Source: Escherichia phage BF17
Sequence record: MW822008.1
Length of the DNA stretch: 64,000 bases
Reading direction: 5' to 3' (one strand)
The notes under the pieces were generated by a model. It was not told the DNA's origin. It did no database searches and saw only the letters and a list, made by a program, of their open reading frames with translations. Positions within the stretch are counted from its first letter, which is position 1, and every line of letters begins with the position of its first letter. The translations under genes were made by a program, and so were the position numbers. This document shows positions 1 through 56,733 of this stretch, in pieces.

Positions 1-75
1 ATTATTGAAGCTTTCAGTAAAGATGATATTTTGGCATTCATCGCTTCAGTAGAGGTTTCGAGCAACCCTAAATAA
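1..75 (+). CDS. 3' end of an upstream ORF (partial, last 24 codons)
   Basis: Open frame from window edge to TAA at 73-75; too short to assign function. Confidence 0.25.
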   Translation: MIEAFSKDDILAFIASVEVSSNPK

Positions 76-120
76 TAATGAAGAACACAAGTTCTTCGTA
101 ACAATTTGGGAGATACTATT

Positions 121-363
121 ATGCTCAGTTTTCGTGAACAATTAGCAAAAGGCCAATTCGCTGCTAAAGCTCAAACATCCATTCCTAAAAAGTCTGCTTT
201 CTTAGGGACGATTACAGAAGATGGTTATTGTGATTATGATGCACCAGAAGATTCATGGTACATTACGAAAGACACAAAACGTGGTAATAGACTTCACAAA
301 AGTACCATTGCTCGCAAACAACGAAAAGAATTGAAAAAAATTCGATTCGGTGAAGAAGAATAA
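121..363 (+). CDS. hypothetical protein
   Basis: ORF-track entry starts at TTG 106; ATG at 121 is preceded by GGGAGA; followed by hairpin terminator. Confidence 0.4.
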   Translation: MLSFREQLAKGQFAAKAQTSIPKKSAFLGTITEDGYCDYDAPEDSWYITKDTKRGNRLHKSTIARKQRKELKKIRFGEEE

Positions 364-374
364 AATATAAATTA

Positions 375-403
375 AGGACTCTGATTACAGAGTCCTTTCT
401 TTT
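375..403 (+). terminator. intrinsic terminator (hairpin AGGACTC/GAGTCCT + T-run)
   Basis: 7-bp inverted repeat followed by TTCTTTTC directly after stop at 363. Confidence 0.5.
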
Positions 404-414
404 CGGAGAATATA

Positions 415-891
415 ATGATACATGAACACCTAGGTAATTTGTTTGAATTATTCAACACTGTTACTGATGATCAAACCGCGTTGCATATAATCGCTCATGG
501 TTGTAATGCACAGGGTAAGATGGGTTCGGGTTTTGCAAAAGAACTAAGAAATCGTTATCCGATGGCATATGATGATTATAAAGCATATGAAAAGGAAATG
601 GGATTTCTAAGAACAGGACAAATTTCATATTCTTCTATAAGTGATGATTTGCTTATCGCAAACTGCATTACCCAAAAGTACTATGGTAATGACGGTTCTA
701 AGTATGTGAGTTATGATGCAATCGATGATGTTTTCAAACAACTCAATTACTTATGTAACGTTGAACGCACTGTTCATGTACACTTCCCGAAAATTGGAGC
801 CGATTTAGGCGGTGGTAACTGGAACGTTATCAAAGAAATCATTGACCACAGACTGGTTAATGCAGAAAAACACTTATACATTCTAAAATAA
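415..891 (+). CDS. macro-domain protein (TARG1/DarG-like ADP-ribose hydrolase fold)
   Basis: Motif AHGCNAQGKMGSGFA resembles TARG1-type AHCIS..MGAGIA; C-terminal FPKIGADLGGGNW resembles macro-domain FPAISTGVYGYP loop; GGAGAA RBS. Confidence 0.55.
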   Translation: MIHEHLGNLFELFNTVTDDQTALHIIAHGCNAQGKMGSGFAKELRNRYPMAYDDYKAYEKEMGFLRTGQISYSSISDDLLIANCITQKYYGNDGSKYVSYDAIDDVFKQLNYLCNVERTVHVHFPKIGADLGGGNWNVIKEIIDHRLVNAEKHLYILK

Positions 892-910
892 ACAAAAGGA
901 CTTGACAAAA

Positions 911-3759: not shown

Positions 3760-6423
3760 ATGGCAGGAGATCTACTCTCACCTGGCGTTTCCATTTCAGT
3801 AACTGATGAAAGTATGAGTACTGCTGCTGCTCCTGGCACAGTACCACTATTTGTAATCGCTACTGCTGAAGACAAACTTGTTCCTGGTAGCAGTGCAATC
3901 GCTGCGGGAACCACTAAAGCAAACGCTGGTAAACTACAGCTACTAACATCACAGAAAAGCTCACTAGATACATTTGGCTCACCAATTTTCCAAATGAACA
4001 ATGGTTCAGTTGTTCAAGGTGACGAACTAAACGAATATGGTCTACATGCTGTATATTCTTATCTAGGCATCACCAACCGTGCATATGTTATTCGTGCTGA
4101 TATCGATTTAGCTCAACTATCACCAAGTGCAACTGCACCAACTGGTCCAGTACCAAATGGTACTCTATGGTTTGATGCTGCTCAATCACAAATTGAAGCT
4201 TATGTTGCTAAGAAAGACAGCCCAAGCAGCTTCTATGACTGGCAATTGAAGCCTGTTACCATCGTAAGTTCTGAAGAAGTTGACGATGTTAGCCTAGTTG
4301 GTCTAAACGTTGATGATCTAGTTCTACGTTATAAGCCAAGTAATGGTCAAATGCTTATGTACAAACGTGCAGCATCTGGTCTAGTACAGGTTGAAACTTA
4401 TCTATCACCAATCAACAAAGTTCCAGTTGGTTCAACTGTTGAACAAGGTAACGTATGGATTCGTGATGGTTATACTCAAAATGGTTCAAACTATTTTGGT
4501 ACTCGTTTTGTTCTAAAACGTTATGCATCTCTAACTCAAGTTTGGAATATCGTTCCAGCATATACTGGTAATTCTTTCCAAGAAGTTGAAGCTAAGAGTG
4601 GTGTACTAAACAACAGTTATATTGCTTGCCGTTTTGATGACGATAGTAAGAGTTTCTCTTTCTATATTCAAAGTGCAAAACTATCAGCAATTAGTGCTCC
4701 AGCAGTACCACTAGGTGAAACTGTTATTGAGCAAGCTGGTGAAGATAGTTATTTGACTTTCGCTTACCTAAACAAATCTGTTAAAGTACTTGCAGTACCA
4801 CAAGGTGGCGTAATTAATACTCAAACTATCATCGATAATCTAAATGTTAGTGCTGATCTTATCAATGATGGATTCAAATTCAAACGTGAATCTAATGGCG
4901 GTTTGGTAGTTACAAACACCAAAGGTTATAGCTTTAAAGTTACCCAAAGCGGTGATGATATTTTTGCAGCGAATGAACTAGCTAAACTAACTGTAGATAG
5001 TAACAACTATTCTCTAGTTAACGTTAATAACTTACGTGTTAGCTCTTCTGTTCCACGTAGTATTGCTAAAGACGGTACTATTTGGTATGATTTCGGTAAT
5101 TCCGATAACCTAACTGTTACCATGTACATTGCAGATGTTGCAAATGACGAATGGGATCTAGTACAAGAAGATAACAAATATGTTCAAGTTGATGAACCTG
5201 CGGCAGACCGTCTAATTTGGGTACGCCCTCTATCTCAAGGAATTGATGGTTATGATTTCTATCGTAACGTTGATGGTGAGTGGGTTAAACTAGACAATAC
5301 TGACCAAAGTACTCTAAACGGTATGATTTTCGCTGACTTTAACTTCCCTGAACAAGTTGCTTCTGCTGCTCTTTATCAGAATGGTATGCTTGCAATTGAC
5401 CTCGGTAATACCGAAGGTGTTGTTAAGAAAATGGTTAATGGTCAATGGCAAGTTGTTAGTGGTGTTAGTCTTGATGGTGCAGGTCTATTCGGTCGTGCAG
5501 CACAACGCAAACTAATCGTTGAAGCACTAGCTGCTGTAATCGTCGGTAATGATGATATCCGTTCTGAATTCATCGACTTCAACCTAATCTGTGTTCCTGG
5601 TTATGTAGAAACTCTAGATGAATGTATTACCCTAAACACTGATCGTAAAGAAACAGCGTTCATTGTAACTGATGTACCTGCTCGTTTGAACCCAACCGGA
5701 AACGGTAGTGCAGTTCAAGAATGGGCTACTAACGCGAATAACGCACCAAGTAATGGTTCAGTAGGCCGTACTTCTGCATATGATTATGCTGCTCAGTACA
5801 TGGGCTGGTGTCTAAGTACTAACGTTGATGGTGAAGAAGTAGCGGTTCCAGGCAGTACTGTTGCAATGCGTACCTATGCGTACAGTGATAGTGTTAGTTT
5901 TGTATGGTATCCACCTGCTGGTACTACTCGTGGTGTTGTAACCAATGCTGCAAGTACTGGTTTCATTAACAGTGAAGGTGAATATCAACCAGTAGTATAC
6001 AACCAAGGTCAACGTGACGTGATGTATACCAACAACATTAACCCAATTGCAATGCGTCCTAACCGTGGCTTGCTAGTATATGGTGATAAAACACTATCTG
6101 CTAACCAAACCTCTGCACTAAGCCGTGTTAACGTTGCTCGTTTGGTTGTTTACATTCGTCGTCAACTAGAAATCATCTCTGAACCATTCCTATTCCGTTT
6201 GAATACTCCAAGTACTCGTCAGGAATTCAGTGGTGTAGTGAATAGCTTCCTAGCTGAAATCGTTCAACAACAAGGTCTATATAACTTCGCAGTTGTTTGT
6301 GACGAAAGTAACAACACTTCTGAACGTATTGACCGTAATGAACTTTGGATGGATATTGCAATCCAACCTACTAAGTCTATCAACTTCATTTACGTACCTA
6401 TTCGTATTGAAAAGACTCAATAA
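3760..6423 (+). CDS. tail sheath protein
   Basis: 887 aa; N-terminus MAGDLLSPGVSISVTDES resembles T4 gp18 start LLSPGIELKE; followed by putative tube genes; GGAGG RBS. Confidence 0.75.
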   Translation: MAGDLLSPGVSISVTDESMSTAAAPGTVPLFVIATAEDKLVPGSSAIAAGTTKANAGKLQLLTSQKSSLDTFGSPIFQMNNGSVVQGDELNEYGLHAVYSYLGITNRAYVIRADIDLAQLSPSATAPTGPVPNGTLWFDAAQSQIEAYVAKKDSPSSFYDWQLKPVTIVSSEEVDDVSLVGLNVDDLVLRYKPSNGQMLMYKRAASGLVQVETYLSPINKVPVGSTVEQGNVWIRDGYTQNGSNYFGTRFVLKRYASLTQVWNIVPAYTGNSFQEVEAKSGVLNNSYIACRFDDDSKSFSFYIQSAKLSAISAPAVPLGETVIEQAGEDSYLTFAYLNKSVKVLAVPQGGVINTQTIIDNLNVSADLINDGFKFKRESNGGLVVTNTKGYSFKVTQSGDDIFAANELAKLTVDSNNYSLVNVNNLRVSSSVPRSIAKDGTIWYDFGNSDNLTVTMYIADVANDEWDLVQEDNKYVQVDEPAADRLIWVRPLSQGIDGYDFYRNVDGEWVKLDNTDQSTLNGMIFADFNFPEQVASAALYQNGMLAIDLGNTEGVVKKMVNGQWQVVSGVSLDGAGLFGRAAQRKLIVEALAAVIVGNDDIRSEFIDFNLICVPGYVETLDECITLNTDRKETAFIVTDVPARLNPTGNGSAVQEWATNANNAPSNGSVGRTSAYDYAAQYMGWCLSTNVDGEEVAVPGSTVAMRTYAYSDSVSFVWYPPAGTTRGVVTNAASTGFINSEGEYQPVVYNQGQRDVMYTNNINPIAMRPNRGLLVYGDKTLSANQTSALSRVNVARLVVYIRRQLEIISEPFLFRLNTPSTRQEFSGVVNSFLAEIVQQQGLYNFAVVCDESNNTSERIDRNELWMDIAIQPTKSINFIYVPIRIEKTQ

Positions 6424-7543: not shown

Positions 7544-7586
7544 TGCTAAATAAAGTATAATACCTTATAAAATAAAAGAGGTTGCT

Positions 7587-38634: not shown

Positions 38635-38707
38635 TATTTATCAGTACAAAATACATTTCGTTGCCATTAATAAATAAATGAAAGTTCACTACTAAAAGGG
38701 CTTAACA

Positions 38708-39835: not shown

Positions 39836-40936
39836 ATGAGTGTAAGTTATACAATTTATAGAAGTAATGGTAGCGTTTATGCTACCATTCCAAATAACGT
39901 AATATTAGGACCAAACCAACCTGGTAGTAACCCAGTACCGTTAAACTTTGCAGGTAGAAATAAAGTTGGTTACGGGCAAGCATGGAACGAAAACTTCCTC
40001 CACTTGGTTGAGAACTTCAGTGGGGCTACTGCACCTCGTGGTAACGTTAATGGTCAGATTTGGTACAGAAATACTGGCAACACTGGTGAACTACTTCTTG
40101 CATTAGTTGATAATGCTCGTCAACCAGTAGATACTGCATCTGAAGCTGACTGGGCATCTATCCCAATGATTTCAATTTTCAACACAGTACCAGATGGTGA
40201 AAATAGTATTATGGGTCGTATGGTTCTTACCAGCAATGGTGATTCCCTTCGTGTCCTAATGAAAAATAAAGAATGGCGTGAAATTCAAACATCTCGTCCT
40301 GAAAATAAAGAATACTCCACACTACTTGATATCAACTATGATACAGGTAAGAAATACATTGAATTTACACAAAGTAACAGTACTAAGCCATTAGCTTACT
40401 TCAATATGGGTGGCACTTCACAGGTTGATTCAAATAACTGGACAACATTCACAAATGGTACTGGGGTGTTTGAATTTGGTAGTAACTATTTTTATGAATT
40501 GAAAATTATGATTCGTGAAGTTAGTGATTCATCAGGTGAAATTGTTTCTCTTCCGTATAATTCAAAAACATTTTTCATTAAAGGTCAGTTCTATGTTGAT
40601 AACCAAGGTACATTTGTTCCTGGTTCAATTGGTGCAAGTCAGATTCCAGACCCACGTCGCATTACACAACTAGAATCAATCAAGGATGTAATTACCAGTA
40701 GTCGCCCTAATTGGGATGTATCTATGGTAATTAATGGTGTTGACCCAACTCTCCCAAATCCGAATGGTATTACAAAAGCGGATTACGAAAACTGGGTGGT
40801 TAACTCTCTTAACTCTAATAAAAACTTAGGGTTCCGCGTCGATGGTATAGTAAACAACCTTTCGGCGGGTGAGTCAGTTAAGCTTCAAGCATCTGTCCTA
40901 CTTAATATAACAGGTATCCCACTGATTGGGGTATAA
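39836..40936 (+). CDS. hypothetical protein, possibly tail-associated
   Basis: 366-aa ORF with AAGGTGA RBS; no motif recognised. Confidence 0.4.
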   Translation: MSVSYTIYRSNGSVYATIPNNVILGPNQPGSNPVPLNFAGRNKVGYGQAWNENFLHLVENFSGATAPRGNVNGQIWYRNTGNTGELLLALVDNARQPVDTASEADWASIPMISIFNTVPDGENSIMGRMVLTSNGDSLRVLMKNKEWREIQTSRPENKEYSTLLDINYDTGKKYIEFTQSNSTKPLAYFNMGGTSQVDSNNWTTFTNGTGVFEFGSNYFYELKIMIREVSDSSGEIVSLPYNSKTFFIKGQFYVDNQGTFVPGSIGASQIPDPRRITQLESIKDVITSSRPNWDVSMVINGVDPTLPNPNGITKADYENWVVNSLNSNKNLGFRVDGIVNNLSAGESVKLQASVLLNITGIPLIGV

Positions 40937-40968
40937 AAAGAAAAAAGGAGCCAATGGCTCCTTTTTTT
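40937..40968. terminator. bidirectional intrinsic terminator
   Basis: GGAGCC-AAT-GGCTCC flanked by A-run and T7 between convergent genes. Confidence 0.75.
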
Positions 40969-40969
40969 G

Positions 40970-41434
40970 TTAATATCGATATGGTAAGCTGTTGACAAAC
41001 TGTGTACCTTGACGTATACTTTCCCACAATGAATAAAAATCCTTCATTAAATTTGCGTTGAGTAATGTGTTTTTTGCACCAGGATGTAACGGTTTAGGCC
41101 ATGAGCCAATCTTAACCCATGCATAACCAGAACTCTCATGATTTAAAGTAGGTACGAATTCATTTTCAACTACAATGACAAATGAATAGTATTTAAATTT
41201 ACCATTCTTAGTGCAGAACACATCAAATGGTATAATATCTATTATCGTTGGAATAGAATCACCTAGTTCTTCTTTAATCTCACGCATAAGACCCTGTAAA
41301 GGAGTTTCATTATACTCAAGCTTCCCACCAACAAATGCCCAGTTGTTAGAATACGTACTTCTTTCTGATCTCAAGTTTAACATCATGTGTCCAGTACTTT
41401 TAGATAAAAATATAGCACCTACTGCTTCATTCAT
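40970..41434 (-). CDS. Nudix hydrolase
   Basis: Canonical Nudix box GGKLEYNETPLQGLMREIKEELG (G-x5-E-x7-REUxEExGU); AAGGAGG RBS. Confidence 0.8.
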   Translation of the reverse strand: MNEAVGAIFLSKSTGHMMLNLRSERSTYSNNWAFVGGKLEYNETPLQGLMREIKEELGDSIPTIIDIIPFDVFCTKNGKFKYYSFVIVVENEFVPTLNHESSGYAWVKIGSWPKPLHPGAKNTLLNANLMKDFYSLWESIRQGTQFVNSLPYRY

Positions 41435-41446
41435 AACAACACCTCC

Positions 41447-42790
41447 TTATTTGTCAGTGAAAGTTATTTTCCAATACCCCTGGCGATATACCGACATAAT
41501 ACTCTTATGCCATTTGAATTTGTCATTATATCTATAATATCCACTATCTTCCATATTATAAACATAGTTGTGTACTAGTGATGGTTCAATAAGTTCTGCT
41601 CCATCATTGGTAATTTTAAACAAATAGTTCGCTGGGATTTCAGTCTCTTTGTAAATGATGTTATGTATGCTATTATTTACATAATATTGTTCAGGTAGTG
41701 CGTTATATAACAAAGAGCCTTTACTAATGAATCCATGTATTGTATAATCAACAGTATAATTACTATTATCAAGCTGAACTACAATCTTGTTAGCATCAAC
41801 CCCTTCACCAAATGAAGAGATATGTCCTTTTAGTGGGTTATCCTCTTCTATAGCTTGTTGGAATTTAATACCTACAGTCTTGTCTTCATATTCTGGGTCC
41901 AAGTACTTAAGGTATTTTTCCCATGAATAAATCCCACCATTTGGTGATGTTTCTGATAGTGATTGACTAACAAGAGTAAGTTGGTAAGTATCTGGTATAT
42001 TAAGTTCAGAGTTTGTTATTTCATCAACTTTAATACATAAGTTCTTTGGTGTGAACACATCAGTAATGATATCGGAGTAATTACCAATTTCAAAATCAAG
42101 TTCATCACGAGCACCTTTAATATTGGTGGTGATTTGTTGGATAAGTTTTGGTTTCTCAACAATAGCTGGCAAAGAGAACCAAATTGTGGTTTCAAATGTC
42201 AATACCATTATATCCAAATCACTATCGGTTCCTTGTGGGAAACCACGAGTAGTAAATTGACAGTCAATCAACTCCACATCACTCAATGATGTCCAATCCA
42301 ATGGGTTCTCGGAGAGTTGTAATTGAATACTAGGAGCAAACAATGTTGAAATTTGCTCAAATAGTTCCATTTTAGTTTGTGTTTGTGTAACCCAAATATT
42401 AACATCAAACGTAAATGTCCAAGGTACTGGGTTATGACGAGTTACTTTATACTGTTTATCTAAGTCTTTAGTATATTCGTTAATTCCAGGGGACTTGTTA
42501 GTCCCCATAACTAATGTTTCATTTGCGTTTGAACGAACTGACTTGCGATCTAGTTTAAGTTGGTTTACACTAATGGTCATGATTGGTGCTGTTGGAAGCA
42601 CGTTCTCACTGTTACCATTAATAATTGCTGCTGCCATACGTGAAATATCTGCATAGCGGCAAGGAACTTTCTTATATTTTGGTTTTCCGTCAGCATCAAC
42701 ACCATTTTGTACTTGAAATTCACCAAACACTCTGATAAGATGTTTCAGTACTCGACGAAATTGACCATCATAATAATAATCTATTTTCAT
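41447..42790 (-). CDS. hypothetical virion protein
   Basis: 447-aa ORF; start overlaps upstream stop (ATGA). Confidence 0.45.
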   Translation of the reverse strand: MKIDYYYDGQFRRVLKHLIRVFGEFQVQNGVDADGKPKYKKVPCRYADISRMAAAIINGNSENVLPTAPIMTISVNQLKLDRKSVRSNANETLVMGTNKSPGINEYTKDLDKQYKVTRHNPVPWTFTFDVNIWVTQTQTKMELFEQISTLFAPSIQLQLSENPLDWTSLSDVELIDCQFTTRGFPQGTDSDLDIMVLTFETTIWFSLPAIVEKPKLIQQITTNIKGARDELDFEIGNYSDIITDVFTPKNLCIKVDEITNSELNIPDTYQLTLVSQSLSETSPNGGIYSWEKYLKYLDPEYEDKTVGIKFQQAIEEDNPLKGHISSFGEGVDANKIVVQLDNSNYTVDYTIHGFISKGSLLYNALPEQYYVNNSIHNIIYKETEIPANYLFKITNDGAELIEPSLVHNYVYNMEDSGYYRYNDKFKWHKSIMSVYRQGYWKITFTDK

Positions 42791-44295
42791 TCTGAATCCT
42801 TATGTATACGATACACTGTATTAGGTTTAACTGCATCATGTAATGGTACACGGTTCGGGCTATTAACAAATTCTGTTAGAGCAAGATCTGCACCTTCCCA
42901 CGGTTTTCTACCACCGTAATCGAAAATCACCCAAGAATTCTTGGACGCACTGTATTCCCATAGGGTTACTGGTGTATAATCGGTACGATAGTAGTAATCA
43001 CCATCAACTGCATCACTTGGGAACATGTTACCTTCAGGAACTGTACCTCGTGCTGGAGGAATCTTAGGACGATAATCTTGTTGTGAATCGATATTTCCAT
43101 AAACACTATTAGAAGTGAATGGGTCATTAACGTAAGTTACTTCTGGTTCTCCCCATTTACCATTTAAGTACTGATAAATGTGTGGTTCTTTGTATTCAAT
43201 ATAAAAATCATCAACCCCTTGTGGCGGTGTGCTTTCTGTAGTACACTCAACATCACAATTTAGCCACTTTTTGGCAGATTTGTCGTATTGATACAATGAG
43301 AAGCCAGTAACATCAGCCTCGTTTTCTTTAAAGAAGAAGTCACCATCCATCGGTTTGCGAGGAAAGATGGTTCCACGCTTGACTTCCACAGAAATCCATG
43401 TATCATTAGATAGTTCTTTCAGTACTGGGTAAGTTTTCTTGAGGAAATACATTTTATTTGCTGGTTCCTCTGGTAATTCGTATCCATTTAGCATATACTT
43501 AGACAAATCAACAGTATCTGGTCTGTCATCGAACAAGTGTTCGTTAGTAAAATGAATGTATGGTACTTCATCATCAGCTTGCATAATGATACGGTTCATA
43601 ATATCCATTTCATTACCATAGCTGCTGTTCTCTGAAGAGCCATCATCAGTATTACCATTGCCGTTGTTTGGATCATCTGGGTCATCAGGGTAGTTATTGT
43701 TACCTAGAAGGTCAGAGTACTCTGGTGAATCAGTAAGAGGTTTAACACGGAGTTTGTAAATGTGATGTTGCCATGTAACTGAGTAACCTTCTGACGTTCT
43801 AAACCCATCTTGTACTACATAGAAGCGGTTTAAACCAGAATCTTTACCAAGTACATCAAAATCACGTAAGTTAGGAAGTTCGATTACGTCACCTGGCATA
43901 ATTTTTCTTCCCAAACGCTGAATCATTGTGTTATAATGAATTGTGATGTCCATTGTGTTAAAATTGAAGAACAATCCTGGGATTTTCAAGTCAGGTGTTG
44001 CTTCTTGGACTTGGTAGACGCAACTTAAGGTGATAGCTTCGAGATTATAGTTACGGCTTGGAGTGTCCCCAAAAATTAAATCACCAATGCTTGACACAAC
44101 GGTACTATCTGATCCATAATAATCACCGCCGTATGATAAATCAGTGTTGTCAGCGACTTGTTTTGGTCCGACATAGGCATAAAGCCACATGTCAACACCA
44201 CCGATGTTGTATTGTTCTGCTATGGCAGAGTCAATGAACTTGTAATCATTGGTTCTACCTTTTTTCCACATTCTGTATGCCATGTTTGTCTCCAA
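42787..44295 (-). CDS. hypothetical virion protein
   Basis: 502-aa ORF with GGAGA RBS, divergent from the ClpA-like gene. Confidence 0.45.
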   Translation of the reverse strand: METNMAYRMWKKGRTNDYKFIDSAIAEQYNIGGVDMWLYAYVGPKQVADNTDLSYGGDYYGSDSTVVSSIGDLIFGDTPSRNYNLEAITLSCVYQVQEATPDLKIPGLFFNFNTMDITIHYNTMIQRLGRKIMPGDVIELPNLRDFDVLGKDSGLNRFYVVQDGFRTSEGYSVTWQHHIYKLRVKPLTDSPEYSDLLGNNNYPDDPDDPNNGNGNTDDGSSENSSYGNEMDIMNRIIMQADDEVPYIHFTNEHLFDDRPDTVDLSKYMLNGYELPEEPANKMYFLKKTYPVLKELSNDTWISVEVKRGTIFPRKPMDGDFFFKENEADVTGFSLYQYDKSAKKWLNCDVECTTESTPPQGVDDFYIEYKEPHIYQYLNGKWGEPEVTYVNDPFTSNSVYGNIDSQQDYRPKIPPARGTVPEGNMFPSDAVDGDYYYRTDYTPVTLWEYSASKNSWVIFDYGGRKPWEGADLALTEFVNSPNRVPLHDAVKPNTVYRIHKDSE

Positions 44296-44325
44296 AATAA
44301 ATCGGGTATATCTTTATTTACCTTG

Positions 44326-44353
44326 TTGACAAACGCAAAGAATGTGATATAAT
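44326..44353 (+). promoter_or_regulatory. sigma70-type promoter (TTGACA-N16-TGnTATAAT) for ClpA-like gene
   Basis: TTGACA 44326-44331, TGTGATATAAT 44343-44353; same architecture as P1/P2. Confidence 0.7.
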
Positions 44354-44391
44354 GTTTATTAATTAGAGTGACTACTCATTTAGGAGAATAC

Positions 44392-46680
44392 ATGAATCTT
44401 ACCCAATTGTTCAAAAAAAGCGACGAACTGGCAACTTCTCTGGGTCATACCTTCTTGACTATTGACCATCTAAGTGCTACAGTACTGACAATCGATAGCA
44501 TCAAAGCAGTGTTTGAGGATATGAACATCGATGCAGAGAAACTACACGGTCGTTTGATTGCATATCTGAAAAATACAGCATTCCCACATGCACCTAAAAG
44601 TGCTGATGGTGATGAAGCGAACCGCACATCACTTCTTGTGAACCGTGTAGTTCAGGAACTTTCTAAGAAATCAGTAATTGAGCAACTTAAACGTGATGAT
44701 TTCTCAATTGATGCTTATTTTGTACTGTTTGAGTGTTTGTCCTTCCCAAATACTGCACTAGAAGCAGCATTGCGTGAAGAGGGTATCACTTGTACTGAAG
44801 CAGCACGAACTCTTCAGAAGCACGTAGAAGCAATCGACAACGGAATTAACCTTCAAAGCATTAGTGATGAACCAACTGGGGAGAAAAAAGTGGCACAACA
44901 GCAACCATCGTCCAAACAAAAAGGTTTAGAAGATTACACCACTAACCTAACCGCACTTGCAAAAGAAGGTAAACTTGACCCAATGATTGGTCGCCAGAAA
45001 GAGCTTTCTGCACTGATTGAAACTCTGGCCCGTAAGACTAAGAAAAATGCTATCCTGACTGGTGAAGCTGGTGTTGGTAAAACGCAAATTATTGATGGTC
45101 TAGCACAGGCAATCGCTGATGGTGAAGTACCAGAGCATCTTAAAGATGTTGAAATTCTGTCTCTGAACGTAGGTGCACTGACTGCTGGTACTAAGTACCG
45201 TGGTGAGTTCGAAGAACGTATCGATAACCTACTAAAAGAACTGAAGAAACGTGAAAACACTATTGTGTTCATCGATGAAATCCATATTATGGTTGGTGCT
45301 GGTTCAGCAAGCAACGGTTCTATGGATATGAGCAACATGCTCAAACCTGCACTATCTCGTGGTGAGATTCGTGTAATCGGTGCAACAACTTACGATGAAT
45401 ATCGTAAAAACATCGAAAAAGATAGTGCACTAACTCGTCGTTTCATGAAAATTGATGTAGTTGAGCCAACAATTGATGAAACCCGTGCGATTGTGAATGG
45501 TTTGAAATCTACTTATGAAACTTTCCATAACGTAGAGTTCAGTACTGAAGCAATGGATGCAGTTATTACACTAAGTGATAAGTTCCTGAAGAACAAACAC
45601 TTCCCTGACAAAGCAATCGACCTAATGGATGCGGCAGCAGCGAAAGTACGTTCTCGTGAAACTGATGATAACATCATCACTGTTGCACTGATTCAAGAAG
45701 TTGTTGCAGGTATCGCAAACCTAGATATTAACGTGGTTGCTTGCACTGAAAGTGAACGTATGCGTAATCTACCAGATGCACTCCGTTCTCGTGTATACGG
45801 TCAAGAAGAAGCAGTACAGAAACTGGTTGATAACGTGATGGTAGCTCGTGCTGGTCTGCGTGATAAATCAAGTGTTCAAGGTGCATTCATGTTTGTTGGG
45901 CCATCTGGTACTGGTAAAACTGAAATTACCAAAGCACTGGCTGATGCAACTGGTTCTGAACTGATTCGTTTCGATATGTCCGAGTTTTCACAGGAACATA
46001 CTGTTGCTAAACTGATTGGTTCACCTCCAGGCTATGTTGGTCACGATTCTGGTAACGGTCTGCTACTCGACAAGATTGAGCAGTTCCCGAATGCAGTACT
46101 GTTGCTTGATGAAATCGAAAAAGCTGATCGTAAAGTACTACTAACCTTCCTACAGGTTCTGGACGAAGGACGTTTGACTGGTTCACAAGGTAAAACTGTT
46201 TACTTCAATAACGTAACTGTTATTATGACAACTAACCTTGGTGCAGCAGATTCAACCAAGCGTAGTATTGGGATGAGCGGTAGTGACACAGCACAAGATA
46301 AAGCGATTAAAGCATTCTTGCCACCTGAATTCATCAACCGTATCGATAGTATTGTGACATTCAAAGACCTAAGCAGCGAAGCGATTGACAGCATCATTGA
46401 TAAGTTCATGGGAAGTTTGAATGAACAAATCAAAGACCGCAAAGTTAAAGTTTCACTGACCAAAGCGGCACGTGAGTGGTTGGCAACAAATGGTGTTAAA
46501 GTTGGGATGGGTGCACGTCCAATGAAACGCACTATTGAGCAAAACATCCGTGTCCCACTAGCTAAAGAGATGTTGTGTGGTTCTCTGGTTAATGGTGGTA
46601 ACGTAACGTTTGATGTGATTGATGGTAAATTGGCTATCAAACCTAAACGAACTAAAGCAGTAGAAAAAGTTATTGCGTAA
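44392..46680 (+). CDS. ClpA-like two-ring AAA+ unfoldase (Clp/Hsp100 family)
   Basis: D1 Walker A GEAGVGKT and B IVFIDEIH; D2 Walker A GPSGTGKT and B LLLDEIE; sensor GARPMKR; no ClpB middle domain; SIGMSG loop where ClpA has IGL; ATG 44392 with TAGGAG RBS (track starts at GTG 44368). Confidence 0.8.
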   Translation: MNLTQLFKKSDELATSLGHTFLTIDHLSATVLTIDSIKAVFEDMNIDAEKLHGRLIAYLKNTAFPHAPKSADGDEANRTSLLVNRVVQELSKKSVIEQLKRDDFSIDAYFVLFECLSFPNTALEAALREEGITCTEAARTLQKHVEAIDNGINLQSISDEPTGEKKVAQQQPSSKQKGLEDYTTNLTALAKEGKLDPMIGRQKELSALIETLARKTKKNAILTGEAGVGKTQIIDGLAQAIADGEVPEHLKDVEILSLNVGALTAGTKYRGEFEERIDNLLKELKKRENTIVFIDEIHIMVGAGSASNGSMDMSNMLKPALSRGEIRVIGATTYDEYRKNIEKDSALTRRFMKIDVVEPTIDETRAIVNGLKSTYETFHNVEFSTEAMDAVITLSDKFLKNKHFPDKAIDLMDAAAAKVRSRETDDNIITVALIQEVVAGIANLDINVVACTESERMRNLPDALRSRVYGQEEAVQKLVDNVMVARAGLRDKSSVQGAFMFVGPSGTGKTEITKALADATGSELIRFDMSEFSQEHTVAKLIGSPPGYVGHDSGNGLLLDKIEQFPNAVLLLDEIEKADRKVLLTFLQVLDEGRLTGSQGKTVYFNNVTVIMTTNLGAADSTKRSIGMSGSDTAQDKAIKAFLPPEFINRIDSIVTFKDLSSEAIDSIIDKFMGSLNEQIKDRKVKVSLTKAAREWLATNGVKVGMGARPMKRTIEQNIRVPLAKEMLCGSLVNGGNVTFDVIDGKLAIKPKRTKAVEKVIA

Positions 46681-56715: not shown

Positions 56716-56733
56716 TTGATTTATTTATGATAT

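What the first reader, a model, noticed from the sequence alone, without database searches (positions are those of the whole stretch)
40937..41434. Isolated Nudix hydrolase between structural modules
The Nudix box is perfect and the gene is a single-gene minus-strand unit bounded by a bidirectional terminator. Phage Nudix enzymes can hydrolyse ADP-ribose, NAD(H) or signalling nucleotides, so the substrate is worth determining. With the macro-domain protein at 415-891, this phage may encode two ADP-ribose-handling activities.
Basis: partly seen in the sequence, partly recalled or inferred. Interest (0 to 1): 0.4.

Follow-up and report, generated by a model that had tools for sequence, protein, structure and literature searches.

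The report
Tail-operon MutT-like Nudix hydrolase gene
This is a real, probably active Nudix hydrolase gene of an E. coli jumbo phage, already annotated in relatives; it is the last gene of a late tail operon, always follows the tail-completion gene, and looks more like nucleotide-triphosphate cleaners than ADP-ribose enzymes.

Summary
The ORF is real. It lies at 40970-41434 on the minus strand and encodes 154 aa (Pfam NUDIX 3e-15, PHROG 1198 2e-44). All catalytic Nudix-box residues are present, and a strong bidirectional terminator hairpin follows at 40941-40967. It is not a single-gene unit. It is the third gene of a minus-strand operon: structural protein, then gp15-like tail sheath stabiliser, then Nudix, with a 4-nt overlap and a 12-nt spacer that carries GGAGGTG. 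The window is 98.5% identical to Asteriusvirus jumbo coliphages, where an identical protein is already annotated MutT/NUDIX.

The nearest characterised relatives by profile and fold are NudI, MutT, NudG and BdRppH, which are (d)NTP or RNA-triphosphate pyrophosphohydrolases. No ADP-ribose, NADH or Ap4A subfamily signature is present. In near-identical genomes a different Nudix, T4 NudE.1-like, sits 0.8 kb upstream of the macro gene, just outside the window. That gene is the better ADP-ribose partner.

The gp15-Nudix gene pair is conserved in 80 of 80 uncultured phage loci examined. The Nudix is always better conserved than gp15. Published virion proteomes of phAPEC6 and CBB, and the MS notes in the PA5oct record, do not list it. 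The substrate remains undetermined. This is an ordinary feature with one interesting aspect, the gp15 linkage.

The parts
40970..41434 (-). Nudix hydrolase CDS, 154 aa, of a phage-specific MutT/NudI-like clade
   Evidence: ORF. Pfam NUDIX 3.2e-15. phrog_1198 2.3e-44. A 100% identical protein is annotated 'nudix hydrolase' in Escherichia phages BF17 and fEgEco12. AF2 model pLDDT 92 with a Nudix fold.
41258..41326 (-). Nudix box, residues G37-D59 (GKLEYNETPLQGLMREIKEELGD). The catalytic residues E43, R51, E52, E55 and E56 are invariant across 41 homologues.
   Evidence: Alignment A1 invariants; regex check.
41072..41101 (-). Clade-specific C-terminal motif W112-P-K-P-L-H117-P-G-A-K121 at the start of the C-terminal helix. 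H117 is invariant. The motif is absent from cellular MutT-like proteins.
   Evidence: the helix begins at residue 118 in the model.
41440..41446 (-). Shine-Dalgarno GGAGGTG inside the 12-nt spacer between the gp15-like stop codon (TAA, 41447-41449) and the Nudix ATG
   Evidence: Sequence.
40941..40967 (.). Bidirectional intrinsic terminator hairpin shared with the convergent + strand structural gene 39836-40936
   Evidence: The hairpin is conserved in phAPEC6 and RaK2 but absent in CBB and Vibrio phage 2.275.O, where the convergent genes abut.
41447..42790 (-). gp15-like tail sheath stabiliser / tail completion gene, immediately upstream and co-oriented
   Evidence: PF16724 4.8e-22. phrog_11196 1e-220 and phrog_227. 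Detected in virions of phAPEC6, CBB and PA5oct.
42787..44283 (-). First gene of the operon, a virion structural protein (498 aa from the ATG at 44283). It overlaps the gp15-like gene by ATGA.
   Evidence: phrog_11591 5e-258; annotation in vB_Ec-M-J; sequence.
44313..44320 (-). TAAATAAA element 30 nt upstream of the operon's first ATG. It is a candidate late promoter of the type predicted for Rak2-like phages (ATAAATA).
   Evidence: The motif and a gp55-like sigma factor are described for CBB and GAP32 in PMC5259590. Function is inferred, not shown.

Best explanation
The gene encodes a catalytically competent single-domain Nudix pyrophosphohydrolase. It belongs to a phage-specific clade whose closest characterised relatives are the small MutT, NudI and NudG type (deoxy)nucleoside-triphosphate pyrophosphohydrolases.

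It is the last cistron of a three-gene operon: structural protein, then gp15-like tail completion protein, then Nudix. The operon is probably driven by a T4-like late promoter element at about 44313-44320 and ends at the bidirectional hairpin 40941-40967. The enzyme is therefore made late, together with tail proteins, but it is not a detectable virion component.

Mechanistically, the REIKEE glutamates (E52, E55, E56) together with E43 and E100 would bind Mg2+/Mn2+ and activate water to cleave a pyrophosphate bond (NTP to NMP + PPi, or NDP-X to NMP + P-X). The invariant WPKPLHPGAK segment at the mouth of the C-terminal helix probably reads the base or X moiety and sets a clade-specific specificity.

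The most likely role is hydrolysis of non-canonical or surplus (d)NTP-type nucleotides while the very large AT-rich genome is still being replicated and packaged, rather than ADP-ribose turnover.

Shown: gene, fold, catalytic residues, operon anatomy, synteny, purifying selection, absence from published virion proteomes. Inferred: late timing, substrate class, biological role.
For: Identity and activity:
- Pfam and PHROG hits.
- All catalytic residues are invariant in 41 homologues spanning 41-100% identity.
- The AF2 model has pLDDT 92.

Nearest relatives:
- Profile search against the PDB: MutT 1.4e-11 and 2.2e-11, NudI 3.8e-10, NudG 1.3e-9, BdRppH 4.4e-9. No ADPRase or NudC appears among the 60 best hits.
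- The strand LNHESSGYAWVK aligns with NudI INEEFDDYAWVK.
- NCBIfam's best weak hits are all NTPase-type.
- The distant homologues in phiRSL1 and BcepSauron sit near deaminase-type nucleotide-metabolism genes.

Operon:
- 12-nt spacer with a Shine-Dalgarno sequence and an ATGA overlap.
- No promoter-like signal above shuffles.
- A late-type motif lies upstream of the operon only.

Conservation:
- The arrangement structural gene, gp15-like, Nudix is kept in vB_Ec-M-J, phAPEC6, CBB, RaK2, Vibrio 2.275.O, PA5oct, marine metagenomic phages, and 80 of 80 IMG/VR loci.
- The Nudix is more conserved than gp15-like in 75 of 75 loci (mean 50% against 33% identity). Against cultured relatives the figures are 96/80/72/62% for the Nudix and 89/60/62/42% for gp15-like.

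Not in virions: the orthologue is missing from the phAPEC6 and CBB virion MS tables, and the PA5oct record carries no MS note for it, while flanking products were detected in all three.
Against: - No NCBIfam equivalog model comes near its cut-off (MutT 34.5 against 97.9; NudI 32.4 against 95).
- Nudix specificity is notoriously hard to predict from sequence.
- The clade-specific H-P-G-A-K segment replaces the region where, as I recall, E. coli MutT places its 8-oxoG-reading Asn119. A classical MutT specificity is therefore unlikely.
- A late tail-operon position is unusual for a nucleotide-pool enzyme.
- No transcript or activity data exist for any member. The PA5oct per-gene expression tables were not available.
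Confidence: 0.5

Rival explanations
1. This is the first reader's idea: an ADP-ribose / NAD(H)-derivative pyrophosphatase. It would work with the macro-domain protein to dispose of ADP-ribose or NAD-derived immune signals such as Thoeris gcADPR.
For: - Phage Nudix enzymes such as T4 NudE.1 hydrolyse ADP-ribose, Ap3A, FAD, NAD and NAD-RNA (GenBank note).
- Comparative work predicts phage Nudix and macro proteins counter ADPr signals (PMC9503650, PMC7824862).
- A macro protein is present at 415-891.
- JGI's automatic names call some homologues 'ADP-ribose pyrophosphatase YjhB'.
Against: - The gene is in a different PHROG from NudE.1 (1198 against 1185).
- hhalign to NudE.1 covers only the N-terminal 96 columns.
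- ADPRases are not in the top 60 profile hits.
- The ADPRase Pro at box +15/16 is Cys/Thr here, and Thr/Ser/Cys across the family.
- The gene is 40 kb from the macro gene, whereas a NudE.1-like paralogue lies 0.8 kb from it in near-identical genomes.
Confidence: 0.12
2. An RNA 5'-end pyrophosphohydrolase or decapping enzyme of the RppH, BdRppH, Dcp2 or Nudt16 type. It would remodel mRNA stability late in infection.
For: - BdRppH is the best single-sequence PDB hit (9.8e-7).
- Dcp2 Nudix domains are among the few hits that align over nearly the whole profile (positions 7-139, 6e-9).
- Family member P0072 passes the Pfam Nudt16-like gathering score (30.1 against 27).
Against: - The window protein itself has no Nudt16-like hit at E <= 0.01.
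- NCBIfam RppH models score 16-25 bits against cut-offs of 118-259.
- E. coli RppH is not in the top 60 profile hits.
- There are no RNA-metabolism neighbours.
- BdRppH also hydrolyses GTP/dGTP, so the hit does not discriminate.
Confidence: 0.15
3. A virion-packaged enzyme, injected with the DNA to act at the very start of the next infection. This is the model proposed for Nudix genes embedded in morphogenesis clusters.
For: The gene is embedded in structural genes and co-transcribed with them. PMC9503650 proposes packaging of Nudix, macro and NADAR proteins in myoviruses.
Against: The orthologue does not appear in the virion MS table of phAPEC6 (gp249) or CBB (CBB_232), and PA5oct gp161 carries no MS note in its record, although the products of both flanking genes were detected in each. 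RaK2 annotation marks its neighbours, but not the Nudix, as virion proteins.
Confidence: 0.05
4. The enzyme is functionally coupled to tail completion, which would explain the obligatory gp15 linkage. For example, it could remove a nucleotide-derived ligand during tail or neck assembly. Alternatively, it could destroy a pyrophosphate-containing host signal triggered by tail proteins late in infection.
For: - The gp15-Nudix adjacency survives rearrangement of everything around it, in 80 of 80 IMG/VR loci and in marine phages.
- Where the pair is interrupted, the inserts are homing endonucleases or single ORFs.
- The Nudix is under stronger constraint than gp15.
Against: - Adjacency can be explained by inheritance of an operon plus a requirement for late co-expression.
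- No nucleotide cofactor is known for gp15-type proteins.
- Clade members in phiRSL1 and BcepSauron keep the motifs without gp15 linkage.
- There is no direct evidence of interaction.
Confidence: 0.1

Closest known systems
NudI (YfaO) of Enterobacteria, a pyrimidine dNTP pyrophosphohydrolase (PDB 3oga, 3n77, 6dt3)
   Different: The NCBIfam NudI equivalog scores 32.4 against a cut-off of 95. NudI lacks the WPKPLHPGAK motif. NudI is a chromosomal housekeeping gene, not part of a tail operon.
MutT (8-oxo-dGTP diphosphatase) and NudG (CTP / 5-methyl-dCTP pyrophosphohydrolase)
   Same: Top profile hits in the PDB (MutT 5x1x 1.4e-11, 4v14 2.2e-11; NudG 2rrk 1.3e-9). Shares the L-x-R...W-x-F-x-GGK-x-E N-terminal pattern. 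GenBank relatives are annotated 'MutT-like'.
   Different: MutT equivalog models score 34-36 bits against cut-offs of 98-148. The C-terminal helix entrance carries H-P-G-A-K instead of the MutT base-reading segment; the MutT side of this comparison is from memory. Cellular MutT-like hits are separated from the phage clade by a large gap in E-value (1e-25 to 1e-8).
T4 NudE.1 (gene e.1), a phage Nudix active on ADP-ribose, Ap3A, FAD, NAD and NAD-RNA
   Same: A phage-encoded, single-domain Nudix of about 150 aa, encoded next to late genes. hhalign probability is 92% over the Nudix-box half.
   Different: It belongs to a different PHROG (1185 against 1198), with no alignment beyond column 96. The same phage lineage carries a true NudE.1-like paralogue (EcMJ_272; 40% identity to NudE.1) next to the macro gene.
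BdRppH, Dcp2 and Nudt16, RNA 5'-end Nudix hydrolases
   Same: BdRppH is the best single-sequence PDB hit. Dcp2 aligns over the full domain. One family member passes the Pfam Nudt16-like cut-off.
   Different: The window protein itself does not hit Nudt16-like. RppH equivalogs score far below their cut-offs. There is no RNA-related gene context.
MutT/NUDIX genes of Rak2-like jumbo phages (121Q gp578, RaK2 gp469, GAP32_226, CBB_232, PA5oct gp161)
   Same: These are orthologues at 53-100% identity, in the same position after the gp15-like gene. The protein in this window is 100% identical to the fEgEco12 / BF17 protein.
   Different: None of substance. None of these has been characterised biochemically, as far as the searched literature shows.

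Membership tests
Nudix superfamily (PF00293) | Nudix box GX5EX7REUXEEXGU with the catalytic Glu residues | tested here: met
   G37-D59 fits every fixed position except the final U, which is Asp here. E43, R51, E52, E55 and E56 are invariant in 41 homologues. Pfam score 56.7 against a cut-off of 21.1.
Nudix superfamily (PF00293) | Alpha/beta/alpha Nudix fold | tested here: met
MutT 8-oxo-dGTP diphosphatase (TIGR00586 / NF008044) | Score above the equivalog cut-off | tested here: not met
   34.5 bits against 97.9, and 35.7 against 148.
MutT 8-oxo-dGTP diphosphatase | 8-oxo-dGTP hydrolysis / antimutator activity | not testable with these tools
   Needs an enzyme assay or mutT complementation.
NudI nucleoside triphosphatase (NF012016) | Score above the equivalog cut-off | tested here: not met
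   32.4 bits against 95, although NudI is the best structural neighbour.
ADP-ribose pyrophosphatase subfamily | Conserved Pro about 15-16 residues after the Nudix box (criterion of Dunn et al. 1999, recalled from memory) | tested here: not met
   Positions +15/+16 are Cys74 and Thr75. The family columns are T/C/S and T/S. No ADPRase appears in the top 60 profile hits.
T4 NudE.1 family (phrog_1185) | Match to the family profile | tested here: not met
   The window protein hits phrog_1198 (2.3e-44) and has no phrog_1185 hit at E <= 1e-3. T4 NudE.1 and EcMJ_272 hit phrog_1185 at 4.7e-74 and 1.4e-45.
NADH pyrophosphatase NudC | SQPWPFPxS motif downstream of the box, and a zinc-binding N-terminal domain (recalled) | tested here: not met
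   The motif is absent. The protein is a single 154-aa domain.
Ap4A hydrolase subfamily | Tyr 16-18 residues after the box (recalled) | tested here: not met
   The residues at those positions are T-K-N.
RNA pyrophosphohydrolase RppH (NF001936-7) | Score above the equivalog cut-off | tested here: not met
   25.3 against 118, 21.8 against 139, and 16.5 against 259.
Nudt16-like decapping family (PF22327) | Score above the gathering threshold | tested here: inconclusive
   The window protein has no hit at E <= 0.01. Homologue P0072 scores 30.1 against 27, and P0067 scores 26.8 against 27.
gp15-linked phage Nudix clade (defined in this report) | Located immediately downstream of and co-oriented with a T4-gp15_tss gene, with the E-F-x-P-x-L-N-x-E and P-L-H-P-G motifs | tested here: met
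   Window anatomy. 80 of 80 IMG/VR loci, 70 of them with a gap of 60 nt or less. Motifs.

The most novel reading that the evidence does not exclude
The invariant gp15-Nudix gene pair reflects a real functional coupling. On this reading, a late, non-virion pyrophosphohydrolase with a clade-specific substrate pocket (WPKPLHPGAK) is needed for one of two things: tail or neck completion, or destroying a pyrophosphate-containing host alarm or immune nucleotide that appears when tail proteins accumulate. That would be a new late-stage role for a phage Nudix enzyme across a very large clade of uncultured and jumbo myoviruses.
Probability: 0.1. Interest if true: 0.6.

Novelty: new member of a known kind. 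Interest (0 to 1): 0.28.

Why it matters
By itself the gene is ordinary. It is a Nudix hydrolase already annotated in dozens of jumbo-phage genomes. Three things make it worth a modest follow-up.

First, it is one of the best-conserved proteins of the tail module in a clade that runs from therapeutic-candidate coliphages to abundant uncultured marine phages, and no member has a known substrate.

Second, its fixed position after the tail-completion gene, together with its absence from virion proteomes, does not fit the usual assumptions. Those assumptions place phage Nudix enzymes either among early metabolic genes or among packaged, injected effectors.

Third, separating it from the NudE.1-like paralogue next to the macro gene tells experimenters which of the phage's Nudix genes to test for ADP-ribose or NAD counter-defence and which to test for nucleotide-pool functions.

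Tried and rejected
- **T4 late promoter.** I searched for the exact motif TATAAATA. There is one match in the window, far from the operon and fewer than chance.
- **Longer upstream motif.** AAATAAAGATATA is not enriched (8 matches against 6.3 expected).
- **Internal promoter for the Nudix.** The sigma-70 scan gives only 9/12 matches, and fewer sites than in shuffles (24 against 29). The only late-motif variant upstream is a 1-mismatch site 238 nt away inside the gp15-like gene. I rejected it as evidence of an internal promoter.
- **Naming the substrate from curated models.** No NCBIfam equivalog comes near its cut-off.
- **Per-gene expression in PA5oct.** The supplementary tables are not held. 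The main text and the preprint do not mention the gene.
- **Literature on this gene family.** I found no characterised jumbo-phage MutT-like Nudix, no anti-Thoeris or anti-defence Nudix, and no report of Nudix and gp15 together.
- **CoA pyrophosphatase idea.** This was prompted by the 'MLNLRS' resemblance to the NuCoA motif and a weak 1nqy hit. I rejected it because the downstream Arg/Gly spacing does not fit.
- **Virion-packaged enzyme.** I considered it and ranked it low because of the proteome data.

Full report
**What is in the sequence.** The ORF runs 40970..41434 on the minus strand and encodes 154 aa. The finding's start, 40937, includes the terminator. The protein matches Pfam NUDIX (3.2e-15, 56.7 bits against a cut-off of 21.1) and PHROG 1198 'MutT/NUDIX hydrolase' (2.3e-44).

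The Nudix box is G37-D59, GKLEYNETPLQGLMREIKEELGD. Every fixed position of GX5EX7REUXEEXGU is met except the last hydrophobic one, which is Asp. That position is variable or gapped across the family. So the box is catalytically complete but not literally perfect.

Directly after the stop codon lies a hairpin at 40941-40967: a GGAGCC/GGCTCC core extended by A/T pairs. T-runs on both strands make it bidirectional. Its free energy is -20.6 kcal/mol on the + strand and -15.9 on the - strand, z about -5, and 0 of 200 shuffles fold as well.

**It is not a single-gene unit.** On the same strand, the gp15-like tail sheath stabiliser gene (41447-42790; PF16724 4.8e-22) ends 12 nt before the Nudix ATG. 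The spacer reads TAA-GGAGGTG-TTGTT-ATG, a canonical ribosome-binding site. The gp15-like gene itself overlaps the upstream virion structural gene (42787-44283) by ATGA.

Sigma-70-like sites in the region are no more frequent than in shuffles (24 against 29.2 +/- 5.8). The only late-type motif upstream of the Nudix gene is a 1-mismatch site 238 nt away, inside the gp15-like gene.

Thirty nucleotides upstream of the first ATG of the operon lies TAAATAAA (44313-44320, minus strand). The same octamer occurs only six times in the window. Four of those occurrences lie 28-36 nt upstream of the start codons of structural genes or operons: 7547+, 38671+, 44313- and 56720-. It matches the ATAAATA late-promoter motif predicted, together with a gp55-like sigma factor, for the related phages CBB and GAP32 (PMC5259590). 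I therefore infer late co-transcription of the three genes. I have not shown it.

**Where the window comes from.** Region 40000-45000 is 98.5% identical to Asteriusvirus jumbo coliphages (vB_Ec-M-J, Ecwhy_1, fEgEco12 and others) and 82% identical to 121Q/PBECO4-type phages. The Nudix protein is 100% identical to the annotated 'nudix hydrolase' of fEgEco12 and BF17. Its identity to relatives is:

| Relative | Identity |
|---|---|
| 121Q / phAPEC6 | 96% |
| RaK2 | 78-80% |
| CBB, GAP32, BF | about 72% |
| Vibrio phage 2.275.O | 62% |
| PA5oct | 53% |

In that sense the gene is already known and annotated.

**The gp15-Nudix linkage.** The local order is a ClpA-like gene on the other strand, then structural gene, gp15-like and Nudix, then three convergent structural genes. 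This order is identical in vB_Ec-M-J, phAPEC6, CBB and RaK2. The core triple is kept in Vibrio 2.275.O and PA5oct.

A profile search finds 1550 proteins at E <= 1e-5. Marine metagenomic members of about 50% identity again lie in the arrangement 416-aa protein, T4-gp15_tss, NUDIX, although their other neighbours differ: gp13, a dNMP kinase, gp23 and even a ribosomal protein L11 gene.

I scanned IMG/VR with the family alignment. At least 569 relatives were found and the best 80 loci, at 41-70% identity, were kept. I then searched their six-frame ORFs with my own HMM of gp15-like proteins, with these results:

- All 80 loci have a gp15-like gene upstream on the same strand.
- In 70 of them the gap is 60 nt or less.
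- The ten exceptions carry opposite-strand HNH homing endonucleases, single unknown ORFs, or in one case fibre-like genes.
- Two far-edge orthologues, at 41% and 44% identity, also have gp15-like upstream.

The Nudix is more conserved than gp15-like in 75 of 75 loci, with mean identity to the window of 50% against 33%. It is also more conserved than most of its structural neighbours in cultured relatives. The caveat is that the 80 loci are the best-scoring ones, so the sample is biased towards closer relatives. More distant homologues at 31-37% identity in phiRSL1 and BcepSauron keep the clade motifs but sit among nucleotide-metabolism-type genes such as deaminase, topoisomerase IB and pncB, not next to gp15.

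**Not a detectable virion protein.** In the PA5oct GenBank record, gp162, gp163 and other neighbours carry ESI-MS/MS notes and gp161, the Nudix, does not. In the phAPEC6 virion table, gp248, gp250c and gp251c are present and gp249 is absent (PMC7247149). In the CBB table, CBB_231, 233 and 234 are present and CBB_232 is absent (PMC5259590). This argues against the packaged, injected-enzyme model proposed for morphogenesis-linked Nudix genes (PMC9503650), within the sensitivity of shotgun MS.

**What kind of Nudix it is.** Forty-one homologues spanning 41-100% identity keep the following residues invariant or nearly invariant:

- the box residues;
- R22;
- F80-x-Y82;
- E92-F-x-P95-x-L-N98-x-E100-S-x-G103-Y-x-W106;
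- W-P-K-P-L116-H117-P-G119-A-K.

The AF2 model is confident, with pLDDT 92.

No NCBIfam equivalog is near its cut-off. The ADPRase proline, the Ap4A tyrosine and the NudC SQPWPFP signature are absent; these criteria are recalled from the Nudix literature. The H-P-G-A-K segment sits at the entrance of the C-terminal helix. From memory, E. coli MutT places its 8-oxoguanine-reading Asn119 there, so a classical MutT specificity is doubtful.

My best reading, at confidence about 0.5, is this. The enzyme is a (d)NTP-type pyrophosphohydrolase with a clade-specific base pocket. It is made late, and it cleans or trims the nucleotide pool during late replication and packaging of a 350-380-kb genome; the window itself is 37.7% G+C.

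**The ADP-ribose idea.** The macro-domain call at 415-891 holds up: PDB 2fg1 1e-15, 2afc, macrodomain 5e3b 3e-11, and Poa1p ADP-ribose-1''-phosphatase 2e-6. The DarG model scores 3.7e-8, below its cut-off. Pfam Macro is just under its cut-off.

The Nudix most likely to partner it is a different gene. Window 1-900 is colinear with vB_Ec-M-J 124036-124935 at 99.2% identity. In that genome a 136-aa Nudix, EcMJ_272, ends 406 nt before the window start and 820 nt upstream of the macro gene. EcMJ_272 belongs to PHROG 1185 together with T4 NudE.1 (1.4e-45 and 4.7e-74) and is 40% identical to NudE.1 (3e-17). NudE.1 hydrolyses ADP-ribose, Ap3A, FAD, NAD and NAD-capped RNA (GenBank note; bioRxiv 10.1101/2024.04.04.588121).

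The Nudix of this finding shares only the box region with EcMJ_272 (BLASTP 3e-4) and with NudE.1 (hhalign, 96 columns). The phage lineage may well have two ADP-ribose-handling activities, but the second is probably not this gene.

The feature is a new member of a known kind. It belongs to an uncharacterised, phage-specific branch of the MutT-like Nudix hydrolases and is already annotated as such in GenBank.

The one aspect that goes beyond routine annotation is the gp15-Nudix gene pair. It is universal across the sampled clade, under strong purifying selection, and its Nudix partner is absent from virion proteomes. I found no mention of this linkage in the searched literature.

Interest is 0.28.

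Noticed in passing
Just upstream of window position 1, equivalent to OQ718158.1 123220-123630 (L008:11221-11631): Near-identical genomes carry a second Nudix gene (EcMJ_272, 136 aa) of the T4 NudE.1 family (phrog_1185 1.4e-45; 40% identity to NudE.1). It lies between a tRNA nucleotidyltransferase gene and the macro-domain gene, ending 406 nt before this window begins. It is the more plausible ADP-ribose/NAD-handling partner of the macro protein.
   Followed up: partly
window 415-891 (+): The macro-domain protein is supported by PDB matches (2fg1 1e-15; macrodomain 5e3b 3e-11; yeast Poa1p ADP-ribose-1''-phosphate phosphatase 2e-6) and a sub-threshold DarG hit. Pfam Macro is just below its cut-off. 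PHROG labels it 'phosphatase'.
   Followed up: partly
window 7547-7554 (+), 38671-38678 (+), 44313-44320 (-), 56720-56727 (-): TAAATAAA occurs only 6 times in the window, and 4 of those lie 28-36 nt upstream of start codons of structural genes or operons (tail tube, structural 38708, the Nudix operon, the giant structural gene). This matches the ATAAATA late-promoter motif predicted for CBB and GAP32, which resembles T4 TATAAATA.
   Followed up: partly
window 44326-44353 (+): A perfect 12/12 sigma-70 consensus promoter (TTGACA-16-TATAAT with an extended -10 TG) faces the ClpA-like ATPase gene. It lies in the same divergent intergenic region as the putative late promoter of the Nudix operon.
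   Followed up: no
L002 (PA5oct MK797984) 4872-5420: The annotated start of PA5oct gp161 (locus 5103) lies inside the Nudix box (GGM-LENNE). The ORF is open from ATG 4872/4929, and the conserved N-terminal strands are encoded upstream, overlapping the end of gp162. The GenBank CDS is probably truncated at its 5' end.
   Followed up: partly
L038:3157-3867 (-), L050:3390-3968 (-), L061:531-1301 (-): In some uncultured relatives an opposite-strand HNH homing-endonuclease gene is inserted exactly between the gp15-like and Nudix genes. Other loci (L053, L056, L086, L098) carry a same-strand ORF of about 200 aa and unknown function there.
   Followed up: partly
L015-L018: 438-863 (-): Marine metagenomic phage contigs carrying the gp15-Nudix pair also encode a ribosomal protein L11 homologue (PF03946 + PF00298) next to gp13 and a dNMP kinase.
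   Followed up: no
L100:1775-3685 (+): In the most divergent orthologous locus, a 636-aa DUF7487 protein is inserted between the gp15-like and Nudix genes, on the same strand.
   Followed up: no
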